Shown here: piece after piece, positions 33,714 to 60,233 of the stretch
Layout of the letters: every line of letters starts with the position of its first letter
Position numbering within the stretch: the stretch's first letter is position 1
DNA from: an uncultured Gammaproteobacteria bacterium
GTDB taxonomy: Bacteria; Patescibacteriota; Patescibacteriia; CAIXNZ01
Length of the DNA: 60,252 bases
Direction: 5' to 3'
NCBI GenBank assembly: GCA_964400885.1
Contig: CAYNWH010000007.1
Coordinates: forward strand, 1-60,252
Position numbers and translations under genes: made by a program
Notes under the pieces: generated by a model
Told to the model about the DNA's origin: nothing
The model's database searches: none
Seen by the model: the letters and a program-made list of their open reading frames with translations, nothing else

Positions 33714-34409
33714 ATGCCCACACCTTTAAAAAAAGAAAGCAAAAATAAACAAAAAATCTATTTTGTTTATTTCATTATTTTTTCGCTTGTCATTCTTATT
33801 ATTTTTGCAGTCATTATTATTGGCAGTTTCTGGGATTACTGGTCACAACTAGGCCGGATAGAAACTTTTTACAAAAACCAGGCCCTGCTTTTGACTCAAA
33901 AATCTCCGCAACTAAATGCTTATGATCCAACCACAGGCGATCCTCAAGCCAAGGTAACTGTTTTTGAATACAGCGACCTTTTTTGCACTGCTTGCCAAAC
34001 CCTTCAGCAAAATTTAAATGATCTGGAAAAATTTTATGGCAACAGAATAAGAATTGTTTTCAAAGGCCTGCCCATTACAATTAATCCGGAAAACAGGCCG
34101 GCTTTAATTGCTGCTTATTGCGCTGGCGAACAAAACCAATTCTGGGCTTATAAAGATTTGCTCTTTCAGGATCCCTTAACTTTAAATAAACAAAAATATT
34201 TAGAATATGCCCAGCAGCTAAATTTAAATCTTGATAATTTTAATAATTGCCTGGCCAGCCAAAGATATGACGCGCTTATTAACCAAAATTTAACTGATGC
34301 TTTGACTCTGCAAATCACTTCTGTCCCGACTGTTTATGTTAATAAGCAAAAGCTGGAAGGCTTTATTGATTATAATGGTTTAAAAAATCTTATAGACCAG
34401 CAACTTTGA
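33714..34409 (+). CDS. membrane-anchored DsbA-like thiol:disulfide oxidoreductase
   Basis: N-terminal TM anchor. Thioredoxin fold with the CxxC motif FCTACQ and the TSVPTVYV cis-Pro loop. Confidence 0.8.
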   Translation: MPTPLKKESKNKQKIYFVYFIIFSLVILIIFAVIIIGSFWDYWSQLGRIETFYKNQALLLTQKSPQLNAYDPTTGDPQAKVTVFEYSDLFCTACQTLQQNLNDLEKFYGNRIRIVFKGLPITINPENRPALIAAYCAGEQNQFWAYKDLLFQDPLTLNKQKYLEYAQQLNLNLDNFNNCLASQRYDALINQNLTDALTLQITSVPTVYVNKQKLEGFIDYNGLKNLIDQQL

Positions 34410-34428
34410 AATATTTAAAAATTTATTT

Positions 34429-43024: not shown

Positions 43025-43747
43025 TTAATCTTCTCTCTGCGCGATTACTAATCCATAAATTTCTTTAAAACCATTTTTTGCTAAAACATCGGCACATTCT
43101 TTCAATGTACTACCTGTTGTTATCACATCATCTATTAAGATGATTTTTTTATTTCTGTCAGCTTGTTCGGTCTTAGTAAAAGTAAAAGCATTAGCAAGGT
43201 TAATTTTACGCTCTTGTCTTGTCAGATTAACTTGGCTAACAGTGTTAAGTTTTCTTTTTAATAGAACCTTCTTCTCAATTTTATAAAAATCGCGAAGATG
43301 ATTAGCCAATAAATCGCTTTGATTAAAACCTCGTTCTAAATAACGTTTTTTATGCAATGGTACAGCCACGAACCAGGTATTCTGGCTATTAATATTTAAA
43401 TACCTAAAAACTTCCTTTTCTTTTAAATAGTTGATAATCAAACTGGCCAAAATCCGGCTAATTTCTTCAACATATTTATATTTCAAATTATGAATCAAGG
43501 CTTGTAAAATCTCGTTATTATAATCAGCCGCCACCCAAATATTTAATAGCTGAGATTCTTTTTGGCAATCCGGGCAGATTTGAGACAAAAAAAACTCTTT
43601 ATGACAAAGAGCACAACAATCTTTTTGATTCAAATCAATTTTAGCAAAGCATTGCTGGCATAAATAATCCCCTTCTTGCCCGCAACTCACACATTCTTTT
43701 GGAAAAACTAAATCTATGAACCAATCTTTTAATTTTAAAATATCCAT
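43025..43747 (-). CDS. comFC: ComF-family protein (phosphoribosyltransferase domain)
   Basis: N-terminal Cys pairs (CVSCG..CQQC; CALC..CPDC) and the C-terminal PRTase loop IILIDDVITTGSTL. Confidence 0.85.
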   Translation of the reverse strand: MDILKLKDWFIDLVFPKECVSCGQEGDYLCQQCFAKIDLNQKDCCALCHKEFFLSQICPDCQKESQLLNIWVAADYNNEILQALIHNLKYKYVEEISRILASLIINYLKEKEVFRYLNINSQNTWFVAVPLHKKRYLERGFNQSDLLANHLRDFYKIEKKVLLKRKLNTVSQVNLTRQERKINLANAFTFTKTEQADRNKKIILIDDVITTGSTLKECADVLAKNGFKEIYGLVIAQRED

Positions 43748-44475: not shown

Positions 44476-46407
44476 TTATATCGGGATTTCTTCTACTCCG
44501 GCTGGCTTGGCTTGATCGGGCTGATTTTCGCTCTTCTCTGCTTCTTCTTCAAATTCTTTCTTCGCTGCTTCAATCTCTAAAAGCTGCCTAGGATCGCTGG
44601 TAATTAACTGATCTTCACTATAAGAAGCAACGACTTTAATTGCAGCATGTTTTCTGCCGGCAAAAAAGATACCCTCGCCTACGCCGCCTTCTAAAAGCAG
44701 ATATTTTTCTCCTTCTGTTAATAAAAAGATTTTTTGGATAGTGTCAATTGCCGCCGGGGATTGTCTTAAAAGCAATTGTAAAGCTGAATTAGTGACAATC
44801 GCCTTGCCATAGGGATTATTTAAGAAATCATTTACATCCTGGGTAATGGTAGTTACGCCCAAATAATATTTTCTGCATCTTTTTACTAAGGCATAAATAA
44901 ATTTAGCCGAGTCTTCCTGGGTCATCAGCCACCAAGCTTCATCAATGACTAAAATCCTTTTTTTAACTTCTGAGCGAACCACATTCCAGATATAATTAAC
45001 AATGCTGTAAATAGCAATAGGACGCAATTCATCTTCCAAATCCCTAACGCTAAAAGTCACCAATTGATTTTTGACATCAACATTAGTTGGTTTATTAAAT
45101 AAGCCGGCAAAAGTTCCTTCTGTATATTTCTTTAATCTCAAGCTCAAACTTTCTGCGCCTTCCATGCCTGCTAAAATATTCTGCAAATCTTGCATAACAG
45201 GCGGCTCAATTACTGCCAAGTCTGATTCCGGCGTAATATCTTTGCTGGCATAAGTTTCTAATAATGCGCGGTCTAAAATTGTATCTTCCTCTATTGATAA
45301 TTTACCCAGCATAATGCGCAATAAACCTTTCAAAGTAATAACTGCGCTGCGGATAATATCTTCGGTTGACGCATCGCCAATTGCTCTGGGCAAATCAAAT
45401 GGATTAATTTTATTTTTGGAAGCTAAGGAGATATCAATATATGTACCATTAACTGCTTCTGACAAATGGAGATATTCTCTTTCTGGATCAATAATAATAA
45501 CATCAGTACCTAACATTAAACTTCTTAAAACTTCTAATTTAATAGTATAACTTTTGCCAGCGCCTGAAGTCGCAAAAACTACAGAATTAGCATTTTGCAA
45601 AGAAAAACGATCAAAAAGGATTAAACTATTATTATGCCGATTTATGCCATATAAAATGCCGTTGTCCGAGGTTAATTCCGATGAAATAAAAGGAAAAGAA
45701 GAAGCAACGGGTGAGGTATTCATATTAAAAGAAACTAATAACTCATCAATGCCCAGGGGCAAAGTTGATTTGAATCCCTGCTCTGCCTGGTACAGCACCT
45801 TTTTGCTATAAATTAATTTGCCGCCAAAGATTGATTCAATTTCCGAAGTAAATTTATCTAGTTCTTCCAAACTATTAGCATAAATACTCGCATACAGAGC
45901 AAATTGGAAAAATTTTTCAATGCCTTGAGTTAATTCATCCCTTAATTTTTCCATATCCCGCAAGGCTGTCTCTAAAATCGGGTCGCGCGGCGCGCCTTTT
46001 TCAATATCTGACATTAATTGAGCCTGCAGATTGCCGACTCTCTTTTTCAGCTGTTTCAAAATTATTTCCGCTTTGACCGGATAAAAAAACATTGAGACAT
46101 CCAGAGTCTTGCTTAAATTTATTATAGGCGTAAACCAGCCAACGCTTATATAGCGCGGGTAATTCAAGACAAAAAGGGTTCTAATAAAAGTATCGCCTAA
46201 GACCAGATATGTAGGCTTAACTTCAAAAGCCGCCGGCGCAATTAAATCCTTAATATCAATTACGCCTTTGCGGTAAATTCTTTCTTCTTCCAGCGTAATT
46301 TGCTCTGCTTTAGCTGCTGCTTCTTCCTGAGCTTTTTTTTGGGCTGCTGTCAATTCTGCTGGCAGTGCTTCTTGTTTTGATGATTTTTGGGTAATGTCTA
46401 ATGCCAT
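44476..46407 (-). CDS. virB4: VirB4/TrbE-type T4SS ATPase
   Basis: Walker A FATSGAGKSYT, Walker B ILVIDEAWWL. The N-terminal segment (FIRTLFVLNYPRYISVGW) is typical of monoderm VirB4 homologues. Confidence 0.85.
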   Translation of the reverse strand: MALDITQKSSKQEALPAELTAAQKKAQEEAAAKAEQITLEEERIYRKGVIDIKDLIAPAAFEVKPTYLVLGDTFIRTLFVLNYPRYISVGWFTPIINLSKTLDVSMFFYPVKAEIILKQLKKRVGNLQAQLMSDIEKGAPRDPILETALRDMEKLRDELTQGIEKFFQFALYASIYANSLEELDKFTSEIESIFGGKLIYSKKVLYQAEQGFKSTLPLGIDELLVSFNMNTSPVASSFPFISSELTSDNGILYGINRHNNSLILFDRFSLQNANSVVFATSGAGKSYTIKLEVLRSLMLGTDVIIIDPEREYLHLSEAVNGTYIDISLASKNKINPFDLPRAIGDASTEDIIRSAVITLKGLLRIMLGKLSIEEDTILDRALLETYASKDITPESDLAVIEPPVMQDLQNILAGMEGAESLSLRLKKYTEGTFAGLFNKPTNVDVKNQLVTFSVRDLEDELRPIAIYSIVNYIWNVVRSEVKKRILVIDEAWWLMTQEDSAKFIYALVKRCRKYYLGVTTITQDVNDFLNNPYGKAIVTNSALQLLLRQSPAAIDTIQKIFLLTEGEKYLLLEGGVGEGIFFAGRKHAAIKVVASYSEDQLITSDPRQLLEIEAAKKEFEEEAEKSENQPDQAKPAGVEEIPI

Positions 46408-46419
46408 AATACAAAATTT

Positions 46420-47079
46420 TTATTTTTCTATGCCTAATTGGCTAATATCTTTTAATCTTTGATTTTGGGAAGTCTTAGGGTTATAAGCATTATAAAGAAG
46501 TTCTATTAAGCCCTGAGTATCTAAAACCACAGTATCCAAACCCATGCCTTTTAAATTTGCCTCTATATTAGAGACAATTAAGCCCAATTCCTGCTTATAT
46601 TCTAAAAATCTTTCCCTCTTTATTTTTATTAATTTGCCCGGGGAAAATGCTTCTTTTAGCCTGTCAAAAAAATTCTTAGATTTGGAGCCTAAAGGATTAA
46701 AAGGCACAACAATAAAAAACCTTTTAGTCATTATTTCGCCAATTTCGACCAGCTCATTAATATAATCAATGTAGCCAATAATCTGCATCCTTAATAATTC
46801 ATTGGTTTGTTTTTTTTGAGCATCTCTTAATCTTCTTAAATAATTGTCAATATCTAAGCGTCTAGACTGTATGACTATTTGTAATGGATGCTCTAAAGCA
46901 TTTAGAAATTCCATATAGCCGCTAATTAAAGCTTTTTGTTCATCATCGGATTTTAAAGCAAAATTAACGCTTGAGCATAAAATTACTGCTCTTAAAGTGC
47001 CGTCCTTTAAAAGGATAGTATCTTCCCTAATTTCCGCAATATCCAAATATTTTTGGGTTGAAGGTTGCGTTACAGCCAT
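46420..47079 (-). CDS. hypothetical cytoplasmic protein (219 aa) of the T4SS-like operon
   Basis: No TM segment. Ends 12 nt upstream of the virB4 start. No family recognised with confidence. Confidence 0.5.
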   Translation of the reverse strand: MAVTQPSTQKYLDIAEIREDTILLKDGTLRAVILCSSVNFALKSDDEQKALISGYMEFLNALEHPLQIVIQSRRLDIDNYLRRLRDAQKKQTNELLRMQIIGYIDYINELVEIGEIMTKRFFIVVPFNPLGSKSKNFFDRLKEAFSPGKLIKIKRERFLEYKQELGLIVSNIEANLKGMGLDTVVLDTQGLIELLYNAYNPKTSQNQRLKDISQLGIEK

Positions 47080-47126: not shown

Positions 47127-47546
47127 CTATTCCTCTTTATAAACTCCGCCTGTATTTACTACCAAAGACAAAGAAGTCAATCTTGATTCAGGAATAGGCG
47201 GCTTGGCAATAAATTCTTTTTTAACTTCTGCCTTTTCTACTGGCGGCAAGGAGGTTATTTCTTCTTTCTGCCAAATCCGCAATCTGGGACGCCTAAAGGT
47301 CTGAACAATATTTAAAAAGAAAAAATGGAAAGGCATGCCATTGACTCTGAAAAAAGCCACAATGCCAAAAATCGCTGTTACTATCAAAGCAATGATGGCA
47401 AAAGTATTAAAATAAAATATTTTATAAAAAATAAAATCCAGCATACCAGCCACCATCATTATCAAAAACTGCCTGGTAGTTATCGGACCGATAATTTTGG
47501 TCTCAACATCAAGAAATTGTGGGACTGAAAACTGTTCAAATGCCAT
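47127..47546 (-). CDS. PrgI-family (VirB3-like) membrane protein
   Basis: FSVPQFLDVETKIIGPITTRQFLIM followed by two TM segments, the layout of PrgI/VirB3-like proteins. Lies upstream of virB4. Confidence 0.6.
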   Translation of the reverse strand: MAFEQFSVPQFLDVETKIIGPITTRQFLIMMVAGMLDFIFYKIFYFNTFAIIALIVTAIFGIVAFFRVNGMPFHFFFLNIVQTFRRPRLRIWQKEEITSLPPVEKAEVKKEFIAKPPIPESRLTSLSLVVNTGGVYKEE

Positions 47547-48962: not shown

Positions 48963-51900
48963 TTATTTTTCTATCAAAGCGCCGGAAATCATGGTATTCA
49001 TTGCTGTTTCCATATCAGCCACTAGGCCCTGAACTTCTTCAGCAGTCAGGTCTTTACGTGTTCTGGCAAAATCCTCCAAGCGCTTTAATCTGGCCGTATA
49101 TTCTTTAGCTAATTGTTCATTTAATTTAGCGCCTCTTCTTTTTAATTTCGTTTCATAAGCAGACATGGCTTTTCTGACCTTATACAAACCTTTTTGTAAT
49201 GATTGTTTAACCTCGCCCTTAGCACCCTGCTGCTGGGCCGTAGCTAAATCAGCTTGGCTTATTTCTGGTAAGCCGCTAATTTTAACCTGATCACCTTCAG
49301 GCGTAACGCCAATATCAGAAAACCCAACATCTTCAAGTACCTCCTGGTTAACCGCGCCAGCAGCCAAACTTCGCTTAAGCTGGGATTCTCTGTGATTAAC
49401 CATTTGTCTGGCCCGATTTTCTGCTGTATCAGCTGAAACACCTCGTGATTGCAAAGCTTTTCTGATTTCAGCAATAACTTGCCCGCGATTGCGGAATTGT
49501 CCCGTCGGTTTATCAAAATTACTTTCTGCTAAAGTTTGTTTATTTTGGCTTTCGGTCTGCATAAATTGATTCATGTCATCTATTTCCATAACGCCAGGCA
49601 CAGGCTGCGGCCTTTTAGGTAAAGACGGCATAACAGTTTGCCTTGAGCCATTAATAATTTTAGCTTTAAGAAACTGCTTGCCAGCCTTATATTGATTAGT
49701 GGCATAATCACTAACAGAATCCACTGTCCTGCCTTTTAAAGCTAAAATACTATCCATTCTTTCTTTGCCAATAGCTCTTTCTGCTAATCTGGATAATCTG
49801 CCTCCGGCTGGCACTGGCGGTGCTTCAGGTGCTGGCCCTGCTGCTGGTGCTGGCGGTACAGTGGGCGGCTGACCAGCCCCACCCCTTGGGCCTTGAGCAT
49901 AATCATTAGCTTTCATACCAGTTGGCAAATACTCATCTCCCAGAATCAAATGGCCTTGGCTAACTCCGGTTGGCGCAGTATCATCTTTACGCCGTTCGCC
50001 ATTTGACTGATATTCAGCTGTGGCTGCCTCATACATTTTATTAAGCTGTTTTCTTTCAGAATCAGAAAATTGAGCCATACTATCCGGATTAGATGCAACT
50101 TCTTCAATGGCTGACGCAATATTTCTTCTAGCGCCCGGATTATAGCGGCCATAATTTTCTGTTTCCTCACCATATGCCATTAATTCATCTTTCCAAAATT
50201 CATTGCGGTCTTCACCTGTCTCAGGATCAAGCTTGCGCCGAGCAAACTTGCTTTGCTCAGCCATTTGGCTTTGCTCACTGATTTTCATTCTCCTGACTGA
50301 ATCTTTATATTCTTCTGCCGGCGTAGTAGTTTTTGGCTTTATCAAACCTTCTTCTGTCACATATAAATTATTAGTCCTCATATGACGGCCCGTTTCGTTT
50401 TTGTAATCCCGGCCTAATTGCTCAGTAAATTCAAAAAATGGCCGATCTCCCATTGTGCGGCTGAATTTCTTAGTAAAATCACCAACATCTTTAGTATCTA
50501 TCCAGCCGTTTTTAGCGCCTTGGGACATTAAAGCCCGCGCTTCCCTTAAATCGCCTTTTTTATTAGCTGCACCTAATCTTTTGCGCCAGACATTAGGATT
50601 TAAAAAAGCGCCTTCAGAATTTAACCTTTTAGTATCCTTTTCTTCCCATTGCTGCCTGACTCTTTCCACTGCCATTTTTCGCGGACCAAATCTTGAGCGA
50701 GCAGTAGCGCTTACTCTTTCAGCCGCTTCTTTTCTGCCTTCAGCTGTAGCATATCTTAAATATTTATTGCGCCGCGCATAATCACCGACAGCCTGCATCG
50801 CACCCCTGACTGGCGCACCAGCCGCTCTGACAGGAGCCATAGCAATGCCCTGCGCAGCTGCGCCAGCTCTTCTGGCCCCTCTTTCCAGCCTGCCCGCTGT
50901 TTGGTTTCTAATGGCGTTAAACCCACCAGTGGCATAGCCAGAACCAACCACGCCCATCCGGCCTGTGAAATACAAACCGCCAACCAGCATAATAATGCCC
51001 ATCATAAACCCTACTGCTCCCTCTGCCGTACCAGCGGGTGAATTAAGGCCATTCACATTATTAGTTATTTCACTTTGCTTAAAGCCGCCACTAACAGCGT
51101 CTTGGGTAATGTTTTGAGAAACACCATTCATGCTAATAATGGCAATCCACAGGAAAAAAGCTAAAAATGGCCCGACCATACAGTATTTAAAAAACTCACC
51201 CCACCATTGCTGGGATAAAGAAGCGATTTTACCGCCGGCTGGCTCAAAAACCCAGGAGAAAAAAGCTAAAGGCGAAAACACAATCAAAATCCATAAAGCC
51301 ACAATTCTAAAAGCCAAAATCACGCAAAAAATCGCGACTACAATCGTAGCAATAATAACAAATATTAAACCAAAGATACTACCTACCATTGAATCTATGT
51401 CCGCATGACTAGTGCCTGCCTGCACATCATAATTATATTTAAATAAATCTGCTGAGCCAAAACCATTTATCAAATTGCCTTGAGTAATATCTTTAAAGGA
51501 TTTAACAAAAGTTATCATAATCACCTGAAAAAAATCAATTATCAAACCAGCAATAGTCCGGCTAAAATTAACCAAAATCGCCATAATTAATAAACGGCCT
51601 AAAAGCTTGTTATAAGAATATTTTTCAATTTTCAAAACTGTGGCAAAAGCGATCAAAAGCAAACCCAGTATAAAAAACATATTAACAATATCGCGGATAA
51701 TCACCCAGCCTTTTTGCACATAAGAATTATAAATAAAATTATTATATAAGCTTAACATCACTAAAAGTTTAACCAATAAAATCAAAACCTTGCCAACTAA
51801 ACTTATCAGGGTCTGAACAATAAAATTAATAATGGAAATGCCAACCGATTTGGCTGCTCCCATAATATCCATATTAGTAGCTGAAACTCGTTCTATGGGT

Positions 51901-51974
51901 ATTAAAACCAAAACTAAAAGCATTACCAAAAATACGGCCAGCAATAATTTTTTATTTTTTATTTTTTTCAGCAT
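48963..51974 (-). CDS. polytopic membrane protein, VirB6/TrbL-like N-domain with a ~650-aa hydrophilic C-terminal extension
   Basis: About 7 TM segments in the first ~340 aa. The tail contains PPTVPPAPAAGPAPEAPPVPAGG and is visibly GC-richer, which explains the many shadow ORFs. Position next to the VirB3/VirB4 genes. Confidence 0.5.
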   Translation of the reverse strand: MLKKIKNKKLLLAVFLVMLLVLVLIPIERVSATNMDIMGAAKSVGISIINFIVQTLISLVGKVLILLVKLLVMLSLYNNFIYNSYVQKGWVIIRDIVNMFFILGLLLIAFATVLKIEKYSYNKLLGRLLIMAILVNFSRTIAGLIIDFFQVIMITFVKSFKDITQGNLINGFGSADLFKYNYDVQAGTSHADIDSMVGSIFGLIFVIIATIVVAIFCVILAFRIVALWILIVFSPLAFFSWVFEPAGGKIASLSQQWWGEFFKYCMVGPFLAFFLWIAIISMNGVSQNITQDAVSGGFKQSEITNNVNGLNSPAGTAEGAVGFMMGIIMLVGGLYFTGRMGVVGSGYATGGFNAIRNQTAGRLERGARRAGAAAQGIAMAPVRAAGAPVRGAMQAVGDYARRNKYLRYATAEGRKEAAERVSATARSRFGPRKMAVERVRQQWEEKDTKRLNSEGAFLNPNVWRKRLGAANKKGDLREARALMSQGAKNGWIDTKDVGDFTKKFSRTMGDRPFFEFTEQLGRDYKNETGRHMRTNNLYVTEEGLIKPKTTTPAEEYKDSVRRMKISEQSQMAEQSKFARRKLDPETGEDRNEFWKDELMAYGEETENYGRYNPGARRNIASAIEEVASNPDSMAQFSDSERKQLNKMYEAATAEYQSNGERRKDDTAPTGVSQGHLILGDEYLPTGMKANDYAQGPRGGAGQPPTVPPAPAAGPAPEAPPVPAGGRLSRLAERAIGKERMDSILALKGRTVDSVSDYATNQYKAGKQFLKAKIINGSRQTVMPSLPKRPQPVPGVMEIDDMNQFMQTESQNKQTLAESNFDKPTGQFRNRGQVIAEIRKALQSRGVSADTAENRARQMVNHRESQLKRSLAAGAVNQEVLEDVGFSDIGVTPEGDQVKISGLPEISQADLATAQQQGAKGEVKQSLQKGLYKVRKAMSAYETKLKRRGAKLNEQLAKEYTARLKRLEDFARTRKDLTAEEVQGLVADMETAMNTMISGALIEK

Positions 51975-51992: not shown

Positions 51993-54900
51993 TTAGGGTG
52001 AAGTAATAGAATAACCAGCTTCTGTTTTTGTTGCAGTATTCCCATTATTATCAGTGGCTTTAATAGTTAAATCACCGCTAGAAGTAATAGTAATAGCGCA
52101 ATCTACTTGAGTTGAGCCAGTCTGGCTGCAAGTAAAATCAGATGTGCCTGCTGTGGTATTTGTTGTATCAACTGTCACATTACTGGCATTAATACCTGCA
52201 CTAGCCGCCACAGAAATCGTTGTATCAGTTATGCTGACAGTCGCTGTTTTCGTAGTTACATTTATTGTAATATTCAAACTGGCTGCCGGACTATTAACCT
52301 TTTCACTGCACTGATCATTTTGCCAGCTGCAGCTCGGATTCAAATTGCAATCCTGCTCTATTTTATAATAAGGGCATAAATCTACTAAGAAAGGAAAATA
52401 AGTCAAACAAGCATAGGGCTGATAATTAAAAGAACCATAAGCACTGTAAGCATTTTGGTAAATGCTATCATAAAGAGGATTAAGAGTGTCAGCTTCTAAG
52501 CACATGCCTTCTAAACCAAGGAATTCTTTCACATTTTCAATCGGGCTGCAGACGCCATTTTGACCTGCCCCGCTGCCGCTGGTAATGCCGCTAATTAGCC
52601 CTGTTTGGCAATCCGTATTATCTTTGCAAACCTTACCTTTGATATCACTAGGGGAAGTACAAATTTTAGTCACAGTAGGCGGCGTAGCCGTAACAGTACC
52701 CAGCGGAAAATTAACTTTAGTGCCTAAAGCATTTGCTTCTTCGTAATTGCATAAATTGCCTGACTGATCCAGCTGCACGCTCTGGCTGTAAAGATTTAAT
52801 AAATCTTTATAACCAGGTTGCTTAATTAAATCGTAAAGCATTGGTGAATCCTGCGCTGGGAAAATTTTACAAATCGGCTCTACAAAACGCAGATCTGACT
52901 GACCAGCTAAATTATTGACTAAAGGATAAGTGCTAAAGCCTTTTTCTAATTCAGATTCAATAGGCAAACGATCAGGTATGCTGTAGCCGGAAAAATCACC
53001 AGCGCGCCATTGCACTAAATCACTTAAGGATCCGGCGCCAAAACGATAAATATAGCCTTTTTTATTAACATAATCGCTAATTCTCTTTATCACCAAAGGC
53101 TGGTTATCAAGATCGTAACGCACATTGTCTTTTTCCGCTGAAAATTTAATGCATTCCCCGCCTGAACTTTCAATACATAAACCAGTCTCAGTGCAAACAC
53201 CCGGCTGCCAGACTTGCTCTGCTGCCAGACAATCACTTTCTTTTTTATATTGGGGATCACTGCAATAGCTCGTACAGACTGCCCATTCCTGGCAATTGCG
53301 GTCAGCCTGAACTTTTAAAATTTCTGCACTATTTCTATCAGTATTTAAAAACTGTACACAGCCCGCATTCCAGTCAACTGCAGTGCAGCTTGAACGATCC
53401 AAATTAGATCCCTGGTCAATTACAAAATAACTATCTTCAGTATTATCTTTAACTTCAACCTGATCATAAGTTACATATGAATCAGGGCAATTACCCTTAT
53501 TAGCGCCTTGATTTAGATTAAGCGGCGCATATAAGACTAGTTCAAAATCTTGCAAGTCTTCTCCTGTGTCAGCCGGCACAGTATAAAGCGCTTCTACTTT
53601 TTTCCAGTCACTCTCTGCGCTAAAAACATAAAGCGGTCCTTGAGCCACATTAGGATCTAAAGAATTAAATTCAAAAGCCGCTTCTGGCAAAGGACATTGA
53701 TCACCTCTGCCTTTAGCATCTTCTGGTACGCGGTAATAAAATGAAATTTTATAAGTTTTACCTTTTTCTAAACGGGCAATAGTCTGGCTAATAGCATAGG
53801 TAGGCACATCTGTTTCCTCTAAAGAACAATCAGTATTTGGGTATAAATATGTACTAGGGCAATCCTGGCTTGTTCTCTTAATTAATTTAATAGCACGGCT
53901 ACCCAGTTTAGGATTATCTGTTTCTATTTTCTGGCCGCCAGAACTAGCTGCTTGAGTTTGCCAGTTAGAAAGCAGGCCAGTCGGATCATTTGATTCAAAA
54001 CTGCCATTGAAAACAAAATTAGGATTAATGTCCACGAATTCTGTGCAGCCATTCCATTTGCTATCACATTCACCCACAAAGCCTTTATATTTATTAGCTT
54101 CTTCAACTTTATAAATAGTAAAAGGAGAAGCTAAGCAAGTAGCAGTATCAGTTAGCCATTCGCCGTTTTGGAACTCACAGATTTCTTGATCTTTAATCTC
54201 AGCGAAAATAGGCGCGCACTGGTTGTATTTTGAACTCCAGCCGCCGCCATTAGCCTGGCAACTTTGAGCTGTCTCAAAATTCAAAGCCGCACAGCCTAAA
54301 GTCGGACTGCCCTTTTTAAACCAGCCTTCCACTCCCTGGCCATTAAGCGTGCTAGTGGTGTATTGGCAAAGCTTAGCTGGATCAATTTTAAAATATTCAG
54401 CATTGCCTGAGTCATTAATTAATTCAGTGCAGCCCAATGATTCTTCGTTGCACATAATAGCATTAGGCACATTTATATATTTATCCGGATCATTTTTAAT
54501 ATAAATATCATTAAAATTAACTGTTACACCCTGGAAAGTTGACTGGCCTAATTTTTTACAGCCTTTATTATCTTTAGTGCAGCTATACTTATCATTAAGC
54601 ACCAAAGTCACTAAATTATCCTGTGGCACAGTATAATCATCTAAAAACGAGGCGTTATCATCATTAAACAGCTGTTTATTAGAGTTAGTTGAATTTTGAG
54701 TATCAATCAAAGCCTGGCAGCCAACAGCGCTGGAGCGGCATAAATTCGTAAAGGATTTAAGGTTATGGGTCTGGCTCAATAAATCCTGATAAGCCTGACA
54801 ACCCAGCATAGCGCCTTCTTCTTCAGCGCCAAAAATATTTTGATTACAGCTGTCTGGCGTCTGCCAGCTATTTTTAACTACATAGACATTATCTTTAACC

Positions 54901-57900
54901 ACTTTTAACAAAATATTATCCAGATAAACTTTGCTATCCAGCGAGTCAAATATTAAACTATTATTGGCAACATTATCCCAGCTGACGAAAACCGGGCCTA
55001 AAGTGTAATTGCGCCATTCATTAGTTAGACGCAAATTAGTTGCCAAAGTAGCAAATTCTTCCAAAGTTGAATCCTGAGAATCAGGCACAGCAGTGCTGAA
55101 TTTAGCTGTAATAACTTCACCGGCTGGGTTGTCGGTCTTAGCCCAGAAAGAAAGCGTATATAAATTATTTTGCTGAATATCAATAAATTTATGTATGGTA
55201 GTGACTGGCGCTGAAACAAATAAAGAATGCCCACCCACTGTCACTGATTCGCCTACTCTAGATAAGCCTTCTGAGGAAGTACCCTCTGCTCCAGCATACC
55301 AATCTAAAGCTCCTGCTCCGTCTTCAAAAGTATCAAAGCTTTGGACATAAACATTATTGCCCTGATTGCCAATAAAAGTTCGGCAGCCATTAGCTTGGGC
55401 TGAACAAGAAATCGCTTCACTAGGAATAGCATCATAAATACAAGACTGGGTATCGCTTTGCCAGCGGCCATTAGTCTTAAGACAATTATCCTGATTTGAT
55501 TCTGTTTTTCTAAAAGGATGGCAATCATCAGCAACAGAAATAGTTTTTCTAATATCTCGGTAATAATTGACTCCATTACTATCAAAGAAATTAACACAAT
55601 TAAAATCAAATTCGCCCAAAGTCAAACGGCAATCGCCAGAATCATCAATAGTTTTTGGCGCGCCAGTTGCAGTATCTTGCTGAAACTCATATTTAATCAA
55701 TTGAGGCGGTCCTGAAGCTGAACCCTGCCAAGTGAAAAATGTTTTTTCTCCCAAACCTAAATTGGGCTTAATGCATTGCCTTAGATAAGTAAAATATCCA
55801 ATACCCTCGCCTCCCGCAGCTACAGCATCTAAATTAGTAAACTGGGCACAGCCTACTTCTGCTAAAGTGCAAGTCTTGGCTGTATTAGGAATAAAATAAT
55901 TATATAAAGGATCTGGCTCTGGTTCATATAAAACCGGGTCTTGCTTAAAGGTATCATAACCCACGCATTCCGCCGGACAATAATCAGTCAAACTAACCAC
56001 GCCTGGTATTTGGGGATCACCATTTACTGGCGTATAAATTTGGCAGCCGACTTCTTCTGGCTCACAAACTTTCATAAAATTGCCACAAATTGAATCATCT
56101 GGCTTATATTTATAACAAGCTGTGACATTTGGCACAAAGACTGCTGAACTCGTAGCTGTCGGCTGATCCCAAAAACCACCTGCTCCTTCTGGGTCTTCAC
56201 AAGCTATTTTATTATCAATATTTAAAACTGGCGGCGGATCACCAGGTCCATAACCATGGCAATCTAACCGAGCCGGCGGCTTTTTATAATATAATTTATT
56301 GTTAGCGTCATAATCAGTATAAGCTGTCACGAAATTATAATTTCTAACCTGGTCTAAAGAATTAAGCGATAAATCAACCCCATCCAGATAAACAGTCGTT
56401 CCAGCTTGCCCGCCGGGTAAATAAATCATGATATCCAATTCTGTGCCACCAGCACCAGTAATTAAAGTGCTATCAACTTGATTATAATATTGATCAACAT
56501 AAAACTGTTTGCTATTTAGCTCGCTTTGAGTCTGTCTCATCTTAGCCAAATTAAATTTGATCGGCTGGCTCAGAGGCAAATTAGCTTTTAAATAAGCAGT
56601 CGCTGTATAAGTATCGCCAGCCCTGGTTAAGATCTTGTTTTCATCAGCAAACTTACTTTTATAAACCAGCACTAATGCTTGATTATCTGTCAAATCACCG
56701 ATATTAATTGCCAATTTGCTTAAACCTTGCCACACATCTGTGCCATCTCTGGAAACAAATGCCCGATCACTAAATGGCCCTTCGCCGCGCCAAGTCCCTA
56801 AAAGATTATTGCAATCTTCTTTTGTAGAATTATATAAACTGGCTCCCTGACAAAATTCATGCCAGCTGCCATTATTAGATTCACAACTAGGTTGGCAATT
56901 TGTATCATCTGGGCCTGGTTCACAAGTATCTAAATTTGATAATTTTTCTTCGACTTGTCCATCTACTTCGCATTTTTGCTGCCAAGTGCCGCCATTAGCT
57001 TGACATTTTTCTTCAGCTTCATTAACTCCAGTCGTAGCCGGATCATCAGCAAATTGCGGATTCTCACAAAGATTATATTTCAAAATGCTACTGGTGCAAA
57101 ATCTTTTAAAATCACCAACATTAGCCAAGCAGTCTGTTTCATTCACATTATTATTAATAGCACCTAAACATTGATAATCCCACGTCTGCCCATTAGCTAA
57201 ACATTCATCTTGGGTGATGCTTGTACCATCTAAACAATAACCGGACCAAGTACCATTATTCAATAAACAATCACTTTGATTATCATAGCCATAATTAAGA
57301 CAGGTTTCATTGTAAGTGCCTTGACAATCGGCTGCGCTAGCCACTTCATCCTTTAATCTTAAATCCCAATTAGCCGGGAAATTACCATCCGGAGCATATT
57401 CAAAGCTTGAATCTGCCACTAAATTATTAGCTGAATCGCGGTATAAGAAAAATTCATTACAGCCTTCATTTTGCCGATCACAGGTGCTAACATAACGATT
57501 TAAATAAATCCTGCTATCTGTTTGCCAAGCGCCGGCTAAATCAGCAGCAGTTGAATACCAAGTGCAGCCGGCATTGTTTGGGCCGCAAATATTGCTGCCG
57601 CTTAAAGTATTTTTTAAATAAGAAACAGTGCTGGCACCATTGAGACCAGTTACACTGTAAGTCCGACAACTATTAAATTCTGCTGGACAAGTATTCGCAG
57701 CAAATTGCCAGACATTTTTTTCTTTAACGCAAAAACCATAATTTTCATTTACACAGCCGCCCTTGCCATCCTCTGTTAAACAGCTGGCAAAATCCGGACA
57801 GCGCGAATATCTTTGGCTATTACTATTAGTCGTCAAAAGCTCACCATAAGGCTCAATATCGGTCTGCACTGCACAGCGCGTACTTGGCAATTTCAAAACC

Positions 57901-60233
57901 CAATTCGGATCAACTAAATTGCAAAAAGGTGATTCATTTTCATCAAAATCACCGCAAGTGCCAGAACCTGCCTTATCAAAACCATTCACTACATCTGCCA
58001 AGGTCGCATTAGCCACTTCATTTAATCTATTAATATTATAATTTCTAACATCATCTAATCCTTCCCCGCCGCCAGTAAAGGGCCTAAATAAACAATTTTG
58101 TAATCTTTGCGATTTAAAGGGATCACTTTGCTCATTAAAGCCAAACTTATCTGTAGCAGTGACATCACTAAAATCTTTATAAGCGCCATTATCCACTGTC
58201 TTGCGATAATTGCAATCTCTAATTAATTCAGCGGCTAACTCTAAGCCTAAAGGCACGACTCTAGCTTTTCTTAACTTTTTAATATTAGATAAATTATATG
58301 TGCCTGGCGCAGCTTCTTCGCCCCAAGAAAAAGTATAATCGCCTACTAATTTGCCTTTATCAATTGCATCTTTAATAGTCAAGCCATCATTAATAGCAAG
58401 GGCAAAATTGGGATCAATTACATTATTATAAAGATTAGGGTTTGCCTGGCCTTTGATATTTAATTGAAAGTCTGCCAATAAATTAATGTCTTTAAAAGAA
58501 AAATTAACAGTGAATTTTTGGGAAATCTTTTCAATATAACTTTGGATGCCTGCCGGCGAAGTGACTAATTCTTCAAATGGATTCCAGTTTGGCGAACCTG
58601 CTGGCGTTTGTAAAGCCGCTGCCCCGCCTTGCTGGGCTAAAAGGGTCTTTGTAGTTTCTACTGTTTGCTGAGGATTTAATAAATCAAGCAGCTTCAAAGC
58701 CAATTGATTCCAAAGAGTCTCTAAAAAAACGCCCAAAGCATCTGCTACTATCTCCTTAGTATAATATGAAGCAACACTGCCGCCTGCTGCTAAATCTTTT
58801 TCAGCTCTGGCTCTAATTAAATTAGAAGGTGTCCTAATCGTGCCAGCAATGCGGTCAGTCACTGATTGCCAGCCCTGATCAATCGTGGCCTGCAAACGGC
58901 TATTAAGCCAAGCATTAAAGCCCTCTTTCATGATTCCGCTGGTTATCTTATCATAAGCATTAAATTCATTAGCTTCTGGGTCAAAAAGCCCGGCAGCTAA
59001 TTGGGAATTATAAGCTGCACTGCCTTCCAAAAGATCAGGTACAAAATTCTGGTTAATCTGGCTTTGCAAATATTCATAGCCGCCTTTAATCGCATTGGCA
59101 ATATTAACTACCTGGCCGGCTTTTTGGTTAAATTCTGTTTGATAAGTTAAAGCCAGGGCCTGATCCTGCACTGGGCATTGGAAAGGATTAAAATTTAAAC
59201 CGCCTAAAATTGAATCGCAAGGTTTTTGATTTAAGGCACAGGCTGTCCTGTTTTGGCACTGGCCATAATTAGTAATAGTATTATTTAATCCTGCTATATA
59301 TGGCTCTATTTTCTTTAGCCAAGCATCTTTGATTATCGGCATATTTTCCGGCGTAATGGGATAACGGCCAACGCTCAGGTCGGCTGGCGTATCAGCCACT
59401 CTATGAGTGATTATATTTTCCACATCTGCACGCAAAGAAGCTGTAAAAGCATCTAATGCTGTAGCCGCACCCTTTAAGTCTGTTTGTACTGGGGGTTCAG
59501 AACAAGTAGTAATATTTCCATTTATTTGTCCTGTCTCACAATTTTTTGCATAAGCCTGAGCTAAAGCTGTATCCCATCTTTTCAAACTAGTATCATTAGC
59601 AATGGAAGAATTTAATCTGCCTACGTTCTCATCAAAAGTGCCGCCTGCACCAATGCCAAAATCAGCAGAAATAAAATCTGTAAGCTTTCTTTGCCCAATT
59701 TCTTCCCAATGGCTTCTTAATTGAGTCCAGGTACAGTCTGGATTATAAGAGCCCGACCATTCTGGGAACATGGGAATATTTAAGGTTAAATTGATGGCTA
59801 TACGCGGATCCAAAGTACAAATATCCAGACCAGTCAAATTTTTCAAAGTTGTCTGGACAAAATCTCCGGCAGCCCTGTCAAACCAACTATTCCAAAAATT
59901 AGGATCACTAATAAATTGCGGCCCCTCACCCTTACCACCGCTTGCTACCCACATAGCTGATTGCTTAGCAATCAAATTAGCTAAATTGCCCAAAATATTT
60001 TTAAAGAAAACTGCCACAATTTCATCCCAGATCTTGGTCGTAATCTTCTCTGTTGTGTCTCCAGCAAACCACATTGCTTGAAGGGTTTCCTGGGGAACAT
60101 CAAATACAGGGATCTGGGCTTCGGCTTTTTTAGTATTAAATAAGAAAAGGGTGTAAAAATTACTAAAAACAAAAATTATAGTAATAAATAAAATTATCAC
60201 TTTTTGCAGTTTTGATTTGCCTAATTTAAACAT
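51993..60233 (-). CDS. giant (2,746 aa) secreted/anchored Cys-rich surface protein with CBM-like and Ig-like segments
   Basis: Uninterrupted 8.2-kb ORF. N-terminal signal/anchor (VIILFITIIFVFSNFYTLFLF). Repeated Cys motifs, three CBM4/9-like openings (NGSFE.., SSFEY.., SFDTFEDG..) and a T/S-rich beta C-terminus. Confidence 0.8.
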   Translation of the reverse strand: MFKLGKSKLQKVIILFITIIFVFSNFYTLFLFNTKKAEAQIPVFDVPQETLQAMWFAGDTTEKITTKIWDEIVAVFFKNILGNLANLIAKQSAMWVASGGKGEGPQFISDPNFWNSWFDRAAGDFVQTTLKNLTGLDICTLDPRIAINLTLNIPMFPEWSGSYNPDCTWTQLRSHWEEIGQRKLTDFISADFGIGAGGTFDENVGRLNSSIANDTSLKRWDTALAQAYAKNCETGQINGNITTCSEPPVQTDLKGAATALDAFTASLRADVENIITHRVADTPADLSVGRYPITPENMPIIKDAWLKKIEPYIAGLNNTITNYGQCQNRTACALNQKPCDSILGGLNFNPFQCPVQDQALALTYQTEFNQKAGQVVNIANAIKGGYEYLQSQINQNFVPDLLEGSAAYNSQLAAGLFDPEANEFNAYDKITSGIMKEGFNAWLNSRLQATIDQGWQSVTDRIAGTIRTPSNLIRARAEKDLAAGGSVASYYTKEIVADALGVFLETLWNQLALKLLDLLNPQQTVETTKTLLAQQGGAAALQTPAGSPNWNPFEELVTSPAGIQSYIEKISQKFTVNFSFKDINLLADFQLNIKGQANPNLYNNVIDPNFALAINDGLTIKDAIDKGKLVGDYTFSWGEEAAPGTYNLSNIKKLRKARVVPLGLELAAELIRDCNYRKTVDNGAYKDFSDVTATDKFGFNEQSDPFKSQRLQNCLFRPFTGGGEGLDDVRNYNINRLNEVANATLADVVNGFDKAGSGTCGDFDENESPFCNLVDPNWVLKLPSTRCAVQTDIEPYGELLTTNSNSQRYSRCPDFASCLTEDGKGGCVNENYGFCVKEKNVWQFAANTCPAEFNSCRTYSVTGLNGASTVSYLKNTLSGSNICGPNNAGCTWYSTAADLAGAWQTDSRIYLNRYVSTCDRQNEGCNEFFLYRDSANNLVADSSFEYAPDGNFPANWDLRLKDEVASAADCQGTYNETCLNYGYDNQSDCLLNNGTWSGYCLDGTSITQDECLANGQTWDYQCLGAINNNVNETDCLANVGDFKRFCTSSILKYNLCENPQFADDPATTGVNEAEEKCQANGGTWQQKCEVDGQVEEKLSNLDTCEPGPDDTNCQPSCESNNGSWHEFCQGASLYNSTKEDCNNLLGTWRGEGPFSDRAFVSRDGTDVWQGLSKLAINIGDLTDNQALVLVYKSKFADENKILTRAGDTYTATAYLKANLPLSQPIKFNLAKMRQTQSELNSKQFYVDQYYNQVDSTLITGAGGTELDIMIYLPGGQAGTTVYLDGVDLSLNSLDQVRNYNFVTAYTDYDANNKLYYKKPPARLDCHGYGPGDPPPVLNIDNKIACEDPEGAGGFWDQPTATSSAVFVPNVTACYKYKPDDSICGNFMKVCEPEEVGCQIYTPVNGDPQIPGVVSLTDYCPAECVGYDTFKQDPVLYEPEPDPLYNYFIPNTAKTCTLAEVGCAQFTNLDAVAAGGEGIGYFTYLRQCIKPNLGLGEKTFFTWQGSASGPPQLIKYEFQQDTATGAPKTIDDSGDCRLTLGEFDFNCVNFFDSNGVNYYRDIRKTISVADDCHPFRKTESNQDNCLKTNGRWQSDTQSCIYDAIPSEAISCSAQANGCRTFIGNQGNNVYVQSFDTFEDGAGALDWYAGAEGTSSEGLSRVGESVTVGGHSLFVSAPVTTIHKFIDIQQNNLYTLSFWAKTDNPAGEVITAKFSTAVPDSQDSTLEEFATLATNLRLTNEWRNYTLGPVFVSWDNVANNSLIFDSLDSKVYLDNILLKVVKDNVYVVKNSWQTPDSCNQNIFGAEEEGAMLGCQAYQDLLSQTHNLKSFTNLCRSSAVGCQALIDTQNSTNSNKQLFNDDNASFLDDYTVPQDNLVTLVLNDKYSCTKDNKGCKKLGQSTFQGVTVNFNDIYIKNDPDKYINVPNAIMCNEESLGCTELINDSGNAEYFKIDPAKLCQYTTSTLNGQGVEGWFKKGSPTLGCAALNFETAQSCQANGGGWSSKYNQCAPIFAEIKDQEICEFQNGEWLTDTATCLASPFTIYKVEEANKYKGFVGECDSKWNGCTEFVDINPNFVFNGSFESNDPTGLLSNWQTQAASSGGQKIETDNPKLGSRAIKLIKRTSQDCPSTYLYPNTDCSLEETDVPTYAISQTIARLEKGKTYKISFYYRVPEDAKGRGDQCPLPEAAFEFNSLDPNVAQGPLYVFSAESDWKKVEALYTVPADTGEDLQDFELVLYAPLNLNQGANKGNCPDSYVTYDQVEVKDNTEDSYFVIDQGSNLDRSSCTAVDWNAGCVQFLNTDRNSAEILKVQADRNCQEWAVCTSYCSDPQYKKESDCLAAEQVWQPGVCTETGLCIESSGGECIKFSAEKDNVRYDLDNQPLVIKRISDYVNKKGYIYRFGAGSLSDLVQWRAGDFSGYSIPDRLPIESELEKGFSTYPLVNNLAGQSDLRFVEPICKIFPAQDSPMLYDLIKQPGYKDLLNLYSQSVQLDQSGNLCNYEEANALGTKVNFPLGTVTATPPTVTKICTSPSDIKGKVCKDNTDCQTGLISGITSGSGAGQNGVCSPIENVKEFLGLEGMCLEADTLNPLYDSIYQNAYSAYGSFNYQPYACLTYFPFLVDLCPYYKIEQDCNLNPSCSWQNDQCSEKVNSPAASLNITINVTTKTATVSITDTTISVAASAGINASNVTVDTTNTTAGTSDFTCSQTGSTQVDCAITITSSGDLTIKATDNNGNTATKTEAGYSITSP

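What the first reader, a model, noticed from the sequence alone, without database searches (positions are those of the whole stretch)
52300..57700. Two short cysteine motifs recur through the giant protein
Reading the 2,746-aa translation shows two repeated motif families that I cannot name.

(a) C-x5-G-C-x-x-[FYLI]. There are nine exact instances: CGPNNAGCTWY, CDRQNEGCNEF, CEPEEVGCQIY, CTLAEVGCAQF, CSAQANGCRTF, CRSSAVGCQAL, CTKDNKGCKKL, CNEESLGCTEL and CDSKWNGCTEF. Two near variants are CPAEFNSCRTY and CTAVDWNAGCVQF.

(b) [DE/polar]-C-x(2,3)-N-G-x-W-x(3,7)-C. Instances are CLLNNGTWSGYC, CLANGQTWDYQC, CQANGGTWQQKC, CESNNGSWHEFC, CNNLLGTWRGE, CLKTNGRWQSDTQSC, CQANGGGWSSKYNQC and CEFQNGEWLTDTATC, with the looser CLAAEQVWQPGVC. 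Five of them are clustered in 56770-57345.

They are interleaved with three segments that open like CBM4/9-type sugar-binding modules (NLVADSSFEYAPDGNFPANW; SFDTFEDGAGALDWY; NFVFNGSFESNDPTGLLSNW). A T/S-rich Ig-like C-terminus follows.

The first ~560 residues are nearly Cys-free and look helical. I counted 39 Cys in the first ~1,150 residues. This looks like a modular disulfide-knotted adhesin with glycan-binding inserts.
Basis: seen in the sequence. Interest (0 to 1): 0.65.

Follow-up and report, generated by a model that had tools for sequence, protein, structure and literature searches.

The report
Disulfide-stapled modules in a secretion-linked giant protein
The two cysteine motifs are real and mark two small, undescribed disulfide-stapled building blocks of a giant secreted protein that ultra-small Patescibacteria encode as the first gene of their type IV secretion operon, so it may be that machine's missing host-binding part.

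Summary
All 20 motif strings are present at the stated places in the 2,746-aa ORF (51993-60233, minus strand). Motif A occurs 9 times (shuffle mean 0.06) and motif B 6 times (shuffle mean 0.014).

Motif A (C-x5-G-C-x2-aromatic) is an 8-residue cysteine loop that opens a beta-hairpin. It is the core of a ~27-aa repeat. Six of its Cys pairs are 100% conserved in 161 family representatives. At three further sites the two Cys are almost always kept or lost together, so each loop most likely closes on itself.

Motif B is modelled as a helix plus beta-hairpin unit with one disulfide. One copy is family-wide. The cluster of five to six copies is a clade-specific ~180-aa array inserted in a loop of the first CBM-like module.

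Neither motif matches Pfam, NCBIfam, PDB sequences, PDB folds or viral folds. Only the CBM4/16/22-like jelly rolls match anything known.

The protein belongs to a very large unnamed family: at least 1,178 clusters (50% identity) and 409 species genomes. It has a Sec signal peptide and is followed by VirB6-like, PrgI, TrsD and VirB4 genes.

"Knotted" is not supported, and adhesin function is inferred, not shown. Best reading: a rigid glycan-binding stalk of the Patescibacteria type IV secretion system.

The parts
51993..60233 (-). Giant ORF, 2,746 aa with 100 Cys. First gene of the type IV secretion operon.
   Evidence: Full-length homologues of 45-79% identity.
60117..60233 (-). Sec-type signal peptide (aa 1-39) ending in AEA|Q. 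No later TM-like segment.
   Evidence: Of 138 full-length-like relatives, 132 have the hydrophobic stretch and 123 an AxA-like site.
58224..60116 (-). N-terminal domain (aa 40-670), Cys-poor, conserved in distant relatives, no family match. Helical character was not tested.
57657..57689 (-). Motif A variant CPAEFNSCRTY (aa 849).
   Evidence: Cys 849 and 856 each present in 99% of 170 relatives.
57555..57587 (-). Motif A CGPNNAGCTWY (aa 883).
57450..57482 (-). Motif A CDRQNEGCNEF (aa 918), leading into CBM1.
   Evidence: Cys 918/925: both present in 138 relatives, one alone in 2, neither in 30.
56334..57425 (-). CBM1-like jelly roll (aa 937-1300), weak by sequence, interrupted by the motif-B array.
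56781..57326 (-). Motif-B array (aa 970-1151, 16 Cys, about 6 units). A clade-specific insertion between the first two strands of CBM1.
   Evidence: internal repeats, prob 95-96%; absent in distant homologues; unit number varies; no PDB sequence match
56034..56066 (-). Motif A CEPEEVGCQIY (aa 1390).
   Evidence: (both Cys in 100% of 161 relatives)
55839..55871 (-). Motif A CTLAEVGCAQF (aa 1455). The pattern VGCxQFTNLD found 409 relatives among species genomes.
55440..55484 (-). Motif B CLKTNGRWQSDTQSC (aa 1584), the family-wide ancestral copy.
   Evidence: (Cys present in 92% and 97%)
55374..55406 (-). Motif A CSAQANGCRTF (aa 1610). Its strand pairs with the first strand of CBM2 in the model.
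54870..55352 (-). CBM2 (aa 1628-1788), a CBM4/16/22-like jelly roll.
   Evidence: 2zex_A, E 4.7e-7, TM 0.69; 4xup, E 9e-8
54708..54740 (-). Motif A CRSSAVGCQAL (aa 1832).
54549..54581 (-). Motif A CTKDNKGCKKL (aa 1885).
54420..54452 (-). Motif A CNEESLGCTEL (aa 1928).
54135..54260 (-). Two motif-B units (aa 1992-2006 and 2019-2033), each modelled as a helix plus beta-hairpin at pLDDT 89-95.
54036..54068 (-). Motif A CDSKWNGCTEF (aa 2056), leading into CBM3.
   Evidence: Cys 2056/2063: both present in 132 relatives, both absent in 29, never one alone.
53430..54020 (-). CBM3 (aa 2072-2268). Pfam CBM_4_9, 40.9 bits, above the curated cut-off.
53349..53387 (-). Motif A variant CTAVDWNAGCVQF (aa 2283).
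   Evidence: Cys 2283/2292 are kept together in 26 relatives and lost together in 2.
53193..53231 (-). Loose motif-B-like CLAAEQVWQPGVC (aa 2335).
51996..52283 (-). Ser/Thr-rich C-terminal segment (aa 2651-2746, 39% S+T). No family match and no LPxTG motif.
48963..51974 (-). 1,003-aa polytopic membrane protein with about 8 TM-like segments. VirB6-like by architecture only.
   Evidence: A homologue lies directly downstream in 39 of 42 related loci.
47127..47546 (-). PrgI (VirB3-like) protein.
   Evidence: E 5e-10
46420..47079 (-). TrsD/TraC-like protein.
44476..46407 (-). VirB4-like ATPase, CD1110 family.
   Evidence: E 5.6e-106
33714..34409 (+). DsbA-like thiol-disulfide oxidoreductase. A candidate oxidase for the roughly 50 disulfides expected if all 100 Cys pair.
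   Evidence: Similar genes lie near the giant gene in L001 and L002.

Best explanation
**What the motifs are.** They are the signatures of two small disulfide-stapled structural modules in a giant secreted protein.

- Motif A is an 8-residue loop, most likely closed by its own two cysteines (C-x6-C, with Gly before the second Cys). The second Cys starts a beta-strand that forms a hairpin. Loop plus strand make a repeat of about 27 aa, used 7-11 times per protein at fixed positions. Three copies lead straight into the first strand of a CBM-like jelly roll.
- Motif B is a unit of about 22-25 aa: a short helix carrying the first Cys, an N-G/G-G turn, and a Trp-bearing hairpin whose second strand carries the second Cys.
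- One B unit (aa 1584) is ancestral to the family. In the window's clade it multiplied, and about six copies form an array inserted in a loop of CBM1.

**What the protein most likely does (inferred).**
- It is exported by Sec and oxidised by a DsbA-like enzyme.
- It then stands outside the cell as a stiff, protease-resistant stalk.
- The stalk presents three lectin-like modules to host cell-surface glycans, in the service of the type IV secretion system whose genes follow it in the operon.
- It would thus play the adhesin role for which no PrgB-like protein has been found in Patescibacteria.

**Shown versus inferred.** Shown: the motifs, their conservation, the paired Cys behaviour, the CBM folds, the synteny and the size of the family. 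Inferred: the disulfides themselves, glycan binding, and the link to secretion.
For: - **Enrichment over shuffles:**
- **Site-by-site conservation:**. Six motif-A Cys pairs are 100% conserved in 161 representatives that are no more than 50% identical to each other.
- **Paired loss or retention of the two Cys of a motif:** 2056/2063 gave 132 both, 0 single, 29 neither. 918/925 gave 138 both, 2 single, 30 neither, and 2283/2292 gave 26 both, 0 single, 2 neither.
- **A real repeat, not just a Cys skeleton:** 27-aa profiles built from one site find units at other sites, up to 154 of 161 at E<0.01. With the non-Cys residues shuffled they find almost none.
- **Models:** the second Cys of motif A starts a hairpin in both models, and the B units are helix plus hairpin at pLDDT 89-95.
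- **B array as a clade-specific insert with variable unit number:**. One B unit is family-wide.
- **CBM identity:**
- **Signal peptide and no other TM segment:**
- **DsbA-like genes nearby:**
- **Operon with the VirB6-like gene, PrgI, TrsD and VirB4:**. The same order occurs in L002 and L003. The polytopic gene follows in 39 of 42 loci.
- **Family size:** 1,178 clusters at E<=1e-30 and 409 species genomes.
- **Literature:** no PrgB-like adhesin was detected in Patescibacteria T4SS loci (PMC12102498).
Against: - No disulfide was observed directly.
- The models give no coordinates to me, and they score below pLDDT 50 on the motif-A loops.
- Both models are of middling quality (mean pLDDT about 65), so 'no fold match' is a weak negative.
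- CBM1 is below the Pfam threshold, and no sugar-binding residues were checked.
- Co-location with secretion genes does not prove a shared function.
- The Saccharibacteria T4SS cluster that was shown to be essential has no such giant gene.
- The mature protein has no recognised cell-wall anchor (no LPxTG), so how it stays on the cell is unknown.
Confidence: 0.6

Rival explanations
1. The motif-A loops are functional sites rather than structural staples. For example they could be exposed ligand- or partner-binding loops, or redox-active C-x6-C pairs that exchange disulfides with partner proteins or host envelope proteins.
For: Six pairs are conserved in 100% of 161 diverged relatives, stricter than most structural disulfides. 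The loops are the least confident parts of both models, as expected for exposed or partner-dependent loops. A Gly before the second Cys is nearly fixed.
Against: Loop residues between the Cys are variable. Two sites are lost as whole pairs in 18% of relatives without loss of the rest. Every loop is tied to the start of a hairpin, which suits a structural role. No thioredoxin-like fold or CxxC context is present.
Confidence: 0.12
2. The giant protein is a structural part of the cell envelope or of the secretion conduit itself, such as an S-layer-like coat or a wall-spanning stalk or channel. It would not be a host adhesin, and the CBM-like modules would bind the bacterium's own wall polymers.
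For: The gene is tightly coupled to the polytopic membrane gene (39 of 42 loci). The N-terminal domain is conserved across the family. No anchor motif was found. CBM folds are also used to bind a cell's own wall.
Against: The B array inserted in CBM1 varies in unit number between close relatives. That fits better with a surface that meets changing partners than with a fixed machine part. The protein is very long and modular, like known fibrillar adhesins.
Confidence: 0.22
3. The motifs are diverged copies of an already described cysteine-rich repeat (EGF-like, thrombospondin, furin-like, GCC2/GCC3 and the like) that sequence and fold searches failed to recognise.
For: The units are very short and the models are of moderate quality, so searches have low power. 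A jelly roll followed by Cys-rich modules is also the layout of Eph receptors, which appear among the fold hits through their jelly roll.
Against: There is no Pfam or NCBIfam hit at E<=1-10. PDB sequence searches match only the CBM. For the CBM-free segment the best PDB fold match has E 0.81 and the best viral match E 0.2. Each unit has two Cys, unlike the 6-8 Cys of the named repeats.
Confidence: 0.05
4. The motif counts are a by-product of a Cys-, Gly- and Asn-rich composition.
For: The protein is 3.6% Cys and rich in N, G and T.
Against: Shuffles give 0.06 and 0.014 expected copies against 9 and 6 observed. The motifs are conserved position by position over hundreds of relatives.
Confidence: 0.01

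Closest known systems
CBM4/CBM9/CBM16/CBM22 carbohydrate-binding modules (Pfam CBM_4_9, PF02018)
   Same: The three jelly-roll segments. CBM3 passes the Pfam cut-off. CBM2 matches CBM22 and CBM4 by profile (E 9e-8, 8e-7) and CBM16/4/22 by fold (TM 0.5-0.7).
   Different: They are not attached to a glycoside hydrolase. Each is preceded by a motif-A Cys-loop hairpin. CBM1 is weak by sequence and carries a 180-aa Cys-rich array in a loop. Ligands are unknown.
PrgB-type surface adhesins of Gram-positive conjugative type IV secretion systems (pCF10 class, MPF-FATA)
   Same: A large secreted surface protein with a polymer-binding module, encoded with a VirB4/PrgI/TrsD-type secretion system of the monoderm kind. 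The proposed role is the same: holding the partner cell.
   Different: No sequence or domain similarity was found, and there is no LPxTG anchor. This protein is about twice as long, has about 100 Cys, and is chromosomal in a locus without a relaxase. The function has not been tested.
Fibrillar multi-domain bacterial adhesins (stalk of repeated small domains presenting a binding module)
   Same: The overall logic: a signal peptide, then a long chain of small beta modules that act as a stalk, with lectin-like binding modules.
   Different: The stalk units here are not Ig-like tandem repeats. They are short units stapled by a single disulfide, at fixed non-tandem positions. Disulfide-rich stalks are unusual in bacteria.
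Eukaryotic cysteine-rich extracellular repeats (EGF-like, TSP1, Eph receptor Cys-rich region)
   Same: Small extracellular modules stabilised by disulfides and placed next to a jelly-roll binding domain.
   Different: These units have two Cys rather than 6-8. There is no sequence or fold match, and the helix-hairpin and loop-hairpin topologies differ.

Membership tests
Pfam CBM_4_9 (PF02018) | Profile score above the curated cut-off (25.9 bits) | tested here: met
   CBM3 (aa 2072-2268) scores 40.9 bits, E 3.3e-10. The whole protein scores 43.4 bits. CBM2 scores 22.8 bits and CBM1 12.9-13.8 bits, both below the cut-off on their own.
Pfam CBM_4_9 (PF02018) | Beta-jelly-roll fold like solved CBM4/16/22 modules | tested here: met
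   Met for CBM2. Foldseek gives 2zex_A at E 4.7e-7 and TM 0.69, and 1gui_A at 2.2e-6. The profile against PDB sequences gives 4xup at E 9.2e-8 and 1gui at 7.6e-7. CBM1 and CBM3 were not modelled.
Pfam CBM_4_9 (PF02018) | Carbohydrate binding through aromatic residues in the cleft | not testable with these tools
   Needs glycan arrays or a complex structure. No residue-level comparison was made.
Described cysteine-rich repeat families (EGF-like, TSP1, furin-like, GCC2_GCC3, knottins) | Match to a curated profile, or the characteristic pattern of 6-8 Cys per unit | tested here: not met
   No Pfam or NCBIfam family other than CBM_4_9 was found at E<=1-10. The units carry two Cys each.
Described cysteine-rich repeat families (EGF-like, TSP1, furin-like, GCC2_GCC3, knottins) | Fold similarity to a solved structure | tested here: inconclusive
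   For the CBM-free segment aa 1786-2075 the best PDB match has E 0.81 and the best viral match E 0.2. Model confidence is only 65 on average, so the negative is weak.
Cystine knot ('disulfide-knotted') | At least three interlocked disulfides within one unit | tested here: not met
   Paired gain and loss links nearest-neighbour Cys within a unit: 2056/2063, 918/925, 2283/2292 and 818/827. Deletions in the B array remove Cys in twos. The bonds themselves were not observed.
Patescibacteria type IV secretion locus (MPF-FATA-like, as in PMC12102498) | Encoded next to VirB4 together with TrsD and PrgI/VirB3 | tested here: met
   Window order: giant, polytopic 1,003-aa protein, 461-aa protein, PrgI, TrsD, VirB4. 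The same order occurs in L002 and L003. Across 42 loci, 39 have the polytopic gene, 22 PrgI, 19 TrsD and 11 VirB4 within the 10-kb flank.
Patescibacteria type IV secretion locus (MPF-FATA-like, as in PMC12102498) | Physical or functional part of the secretion machine | not testable with these tools
   Needs genetics, pull-downs or tomography.
PrgB-like Gram-positive T4SS adhesins | Polymer adhesin domain and an LPxTG sortase anchor | tested here: not met
   There is no such Pfam match and no LPxTG-like motif. The resemblance is in proposed role only.

The most novel reading that the evidence does not exclude
This family is the long-sought host-contact component of the Patescibacteria type IV secretion system in the ABY1 and Paceibacteria lineages. 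It would be a disulfide-stapled, lectin-bearing stalk about 2,700 aa long, built from two previously undescribed mini-folds. Its variable motif-B array, inserted in a lectin loop, would tune which host surface is recognised. If so, it would take the place that VirB2-like pilin arrays hold in Saccharibacteria.
Probability: 0.3. Interest if true: 0.8.

Novelty: new variant of a known kind. Interest (0 to 1): 0.6.

Why it matters
Patescibacteria make up a large share of bacterial diversity and live attached to other microbes. Their type IV secretion system is essential in the one species tested, yet its function and its host-contact part are unknown. A published phylum-wide survey found no adhesin in these loci.

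A giant, secreted, lectin-bearing protein that leads the operon in hundreds of species is an obvious candidate, and it gives a concrete gene to test. The two motifs also give cheap, specific handles for finding the family. One 10-residue pattern around motif A recovered 409 relatives from 417 matches.

The motifs define two small disulfide-stapled modules with no counterpart found in Pfam, NCBIfam, the PDB or a viral structure library. These are worth a structure determination and a family entry.

Tried and rejected
- **Pfam and NCBIfam scans**, on the whole protein and on eight segments at E up to 10. Only CBM_4_9 was found.
- **PDB sequence searches.** With the 12-sequence full-length profile, the B array alone and the 17-sequence core profile, only CBM chains matched.
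- **hhalign self-comparison of the inter-CBM regions.** It detected the B repeats but was too insensitive for the 27-aa A units, which aligned only over 17-20 residues at low probability. It was replaced by site-specific unit profiles with a Cys-preserving shuffle control.
- **Two AlphaFold models** (aa 1300-2075 and aa 1786-2075). Both had mean pLDDT about 65, and a deeper alignment did not rescue the motif-A loops.
- **Attempts at a deeper alignment for the second model.** They were stopped by size limits. The second word-index homologue search returned only 21 proteins, mostly shorter ones.
- **Fold searches of the CBM-free model** against the PDB and viral models. Nothing was found.
- **DNA-level tandem repeats in the B array.** None were found, so the array is old at the DNA level.
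- **Literature searches** for a description of this giant family. None was found.
- **Considered and rejected:** a plasmid or ICE origin, because the flanks are housekeeping genes; and a T4SS substrate role, because the protein has a Sec signal peptide.

Full report
**1. The observation**

The region lies inside one ORF, 51993-60233 on the minus strand, of 2,746 aa with 100 cysteines.

- The strict motif A, C-x5-G-C-x2-[FYLI], occurs nine times (aa 883, 918, 1390, 1455, 1610, 1832, 1885, 1928, 2056). Two variants lie at aa 849 and 2283.
- In 5,000 shuffles of the Cys-rich segment, the mean count of motif A was 0.06 and the maximum 2.
A slightly relaxed form matches six, against a shuffle mean of 0.014. 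The remaining B strings exist but are looser.
- C-x6-C and C-x10-C are the two commonest Cys spacings in the protein.

**2. Conservation and family**

Eleven full-length homologues of 45-79% identity keep nearly every Cys, and every motif-A site, in place. One of them is labelled Candidatus Falkowbacteria. More distant giant proteins of 28-33% identity share blocks around aa 735-967 and aa 1374-2068. They carry five to nine strict motif-A copies themselves.

A profile of aa 1300-2075 was searched against 1.84 billion cluster representatives. It found 2,105 proteins at E<=0.001 and 1,178 at E<=1e-30, mostly 2,400-3,800 aa long. Among the 162 sequences then held (the 150 best hits, all E<=1e-166, plus earlier homologues):

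- motif A occurs 5-10 times per protein (median 8);
- C-x6-C is the commonest Cys spacing;
- motif B usually occurs 0-1 times, and 5-8 times only in the window's clade.

A single 10-residue pattern around the motif A at aa 1455 hit 417 places in one-genome-per-species contigs, and 409 of them encode relatives. The named taxa are Uhr-, Buchanan-, Falkow- and Komeilibacteria, Parcubacteria and Paceibacter. Many records titled 'uncultured Gammaproteobacteria' look mislabelled. Source names for members are 'hypothetical protein' or 'carbohydrate binding domain-containing protein'.

**3. What motif A is**

161 representatives were aligned to the core profile.

- The Cys pairs 1390/1397, 1455/1462, 1610/1617, 1832/1839, 1885/1892 and 1928/1935 are present in 100% of them.
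- Where a site varies, the two Cys go together:

| Cys pair | both present | one alone | neither |
|---|---|---|---|
| 2056/2063 | 132 | 0 | 29 |
| 918/925 | 138 | 2 | 30 |
| 2283/2292 | 26 | 0 | 2 |

This is the pattern expected if the two Cys of a motif bond to each other. It is inference from covariation, not an observed bond.

The units share more than a Cys skeleton. Profiles of 27 aa built from one site detect units of other sites at E<0.01 in up to 154 of 161 cases. After the non-Cys residues are shuffled they detect at most two.

In both AlphaFold models the second Cys begins a beta-strand that forms a hairpin. At aa 1610 that strand pairs with the first strand of CBM2. Three A units (aa 918, 1610, 2056) sit 10-15 residues before a CBM-like module. 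The loops themselves score below pLDDT 50 in both models, which I cannot explain.

**4. What motif B is**

The two units at aa 1992-2006 and 2019-2033 are modelled the same way in both models. Each is a short helix carrying the first Cys, a turn at N-G or G-G, and a two-strand hairpin with the Trp on the first strand and the second Cys on the second.

The unit at aa 1584 is family-wide: its Cys are present in 92% and 97% of relatives, and 137 of 180 proteins hold at least one B-like match.

The cluster at aa 970-1151 is internally repetitive (hhalign probability 95-96%). In an alignment with distant relatives it appears as an insertion of about 180 aa between the first strand of CBM1 (NLVADSSFEY) and the next strand. 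Distant relatives have 10-20 residues there. Close relatives differ in unit number and always lose Cys in twos. There is no DNA-level tandem repeat, so the array is old.

**5. Comparison with known families**

- Pfam and NCBIfam give only CBM_4_9.
- CBM3 passes the curated cut-off at 40.9 bits.
- CBM2 scores 22.8 bits, but it matches CBM22 and CBM4 chains by profile (E 9e-8 and 8e-7) and CBM16/4/22 by fold (TM up to 0.69).
- CBM1 is weak, at 12.9-13.8 bits even with the insert spliced out.
- The B array has no PDB sequence match at E<=10.
- The CBM-free model of aa 1786-2075 has no fold match: best PDB E 0.81 and best viral E 0.2. The model is of middling confidence, so this negative is weak.
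- The N-terminal 630 aa, the segments aa 670-936 and aa 2270-2650, and the Ser/Thr-rich C-terminus match nothing.
- 'Ig-like' and 'helical' remain untested.
- 'Knotted' is not supported, because the evidence points to one local disulfide per unit.

**6. Context**

The protein starts with a hydrophobic stretch ending in AEA|Q. 132 of 138 full-length-like relatives have such a stretch, 123 have an AxA-like site, and only 3 have a later TM-like segment. There is no LPxTG motif.

Downstream on the same strand lie, in order:

- a 1,003-aa polytopic protein with about eight TM-like segments (VirB6-like by architecture only);
- a 461-aa charged protein;
- PrgI (E 5e-10);
- a TrsD-like protein;
- VirB4 (E 5.6e-106);
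- a 219-aa single-pass protein;
- a ComF-like protein.

RecG, a RadA-like gene, a protein with a T4SS-pilin domain and a DsbA-like oxidoreductase lie within 18 kb. The rest of the window is housekeeping, so the locus is chromosomal.

The same gene order holds for a 79%-identical relative and for a 33%-identical one. Of 42 related loci with full flanks, 39 have the polytopic gene next to the giant gene. PrgI, TrsD and VirB4 appear in 22, 19 and 11 loci within the limited 10-kb flank. DsbA-like genes also lie near the giant gene in two distant loci.

This matches the published description of ABY1-class type IV secretion loci: TrsD next to VirB4, and comF, recG, radA and ksgA nearby. That paper reports that no PrgB-like adhesin was detected in Patescibacteria (PMC12102498). 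The Saccharibacteria cluster shown to be essential has a pilin array and no giant gene (PMC10633639). I found no paper that describes this giant family.

**7. Explanation**

Shown:

- two real, conserved, family-specific motifs;
- pairwise behaviour of their Cys;
- CBM-like folds;
- secretion signals;
- conserved synteny with a type IV secretion system;
- a very large family.

Inferred: the motifs are disulfide staples that stiffen a chain of small beta modules into a long extracellular stalk. The stalk displays lectin-like modules to host surface glycans. The clade-specific B array in a CBM1 loop either spaces that module or modifies its specificity.

The main rivals are:

- the A loops are functional sites rather than staples;
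- the protein is an envelope or conduit part rather than an adhesin;
- a missed relationship to a named repeat family.

**8. Verdict**

This is a new variant of a known kind, a modular disulfide-rich surface protein with lectin modules. It is built from two undescribed mini-modules and has a strong, previously unreported link to the Patescibacteria type IV secretion operon.

Noticed in passing
window 33714-35796 (+): A DsbA-like thioredoxin gene (Thioredoxin_4, E 6e-26) is directly followed by a 455-aa protein with a T4SS_pilin domain (29 bits, cut-off 26.6). Both lie about 16 kb from the giant gene, and both fit the secretion and disulfide theme.
   Followed up: partly
window 36541-37872, 39399-41468, 43025-43747: RadA-like, RecG and ComF-like genes flank the secretion operon. 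The same association is reported for ABY1-class Patescibacteria in PMC12102498.
   Followed up: partly
window 42377-43014: A gene of the 23S_rRNA_IVP family (42517-42882, +, E 1e-25) sits between two tRNA-Ser genes.
   Followed up: no
window 10000-16000: G+C rises from about 0.34 to 0.41-0.46. The stretch holds DapB, an MBL-fold protein and two ORFs (12254-13726 and 15483-16868) with no Pfam match. It may be acquired DNA.
   Followed up: no
loci L005, L006, L016, L027, L028 and others: Many genome records that carry the giant gene and its secretion operon are titled 'uncultured Gammaproteobacteria'. Their gene content is Patescibacteria-like, so the records are probably mislabelled.
   Followed up: no
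proteins P0163, P0168, P0171: The family also has members of 1,350-1,600 aa on long contigs (55-149 kb). A shorter architecture therefore exists. It was not compared in detail.
   Followed up: no
window 54420-56066 (motif-A loops): AlphaFold gives pLDDT below 50 on the 100%-conserved motif-A loops in both models, while neighbouring hairpins and B units are confident. This is unexplained.
   Followed up: partly
locus L003 9113-9946; L001 9384-9989; L002 9263-9991: A gene of 200-280 aa lies between ksgA and the giant gene in relatives, with a TSP3_bac match in L003. The window ends 19 bases upstream of the giant ORF, so its presence here cannot be seen.
   Followed up: no
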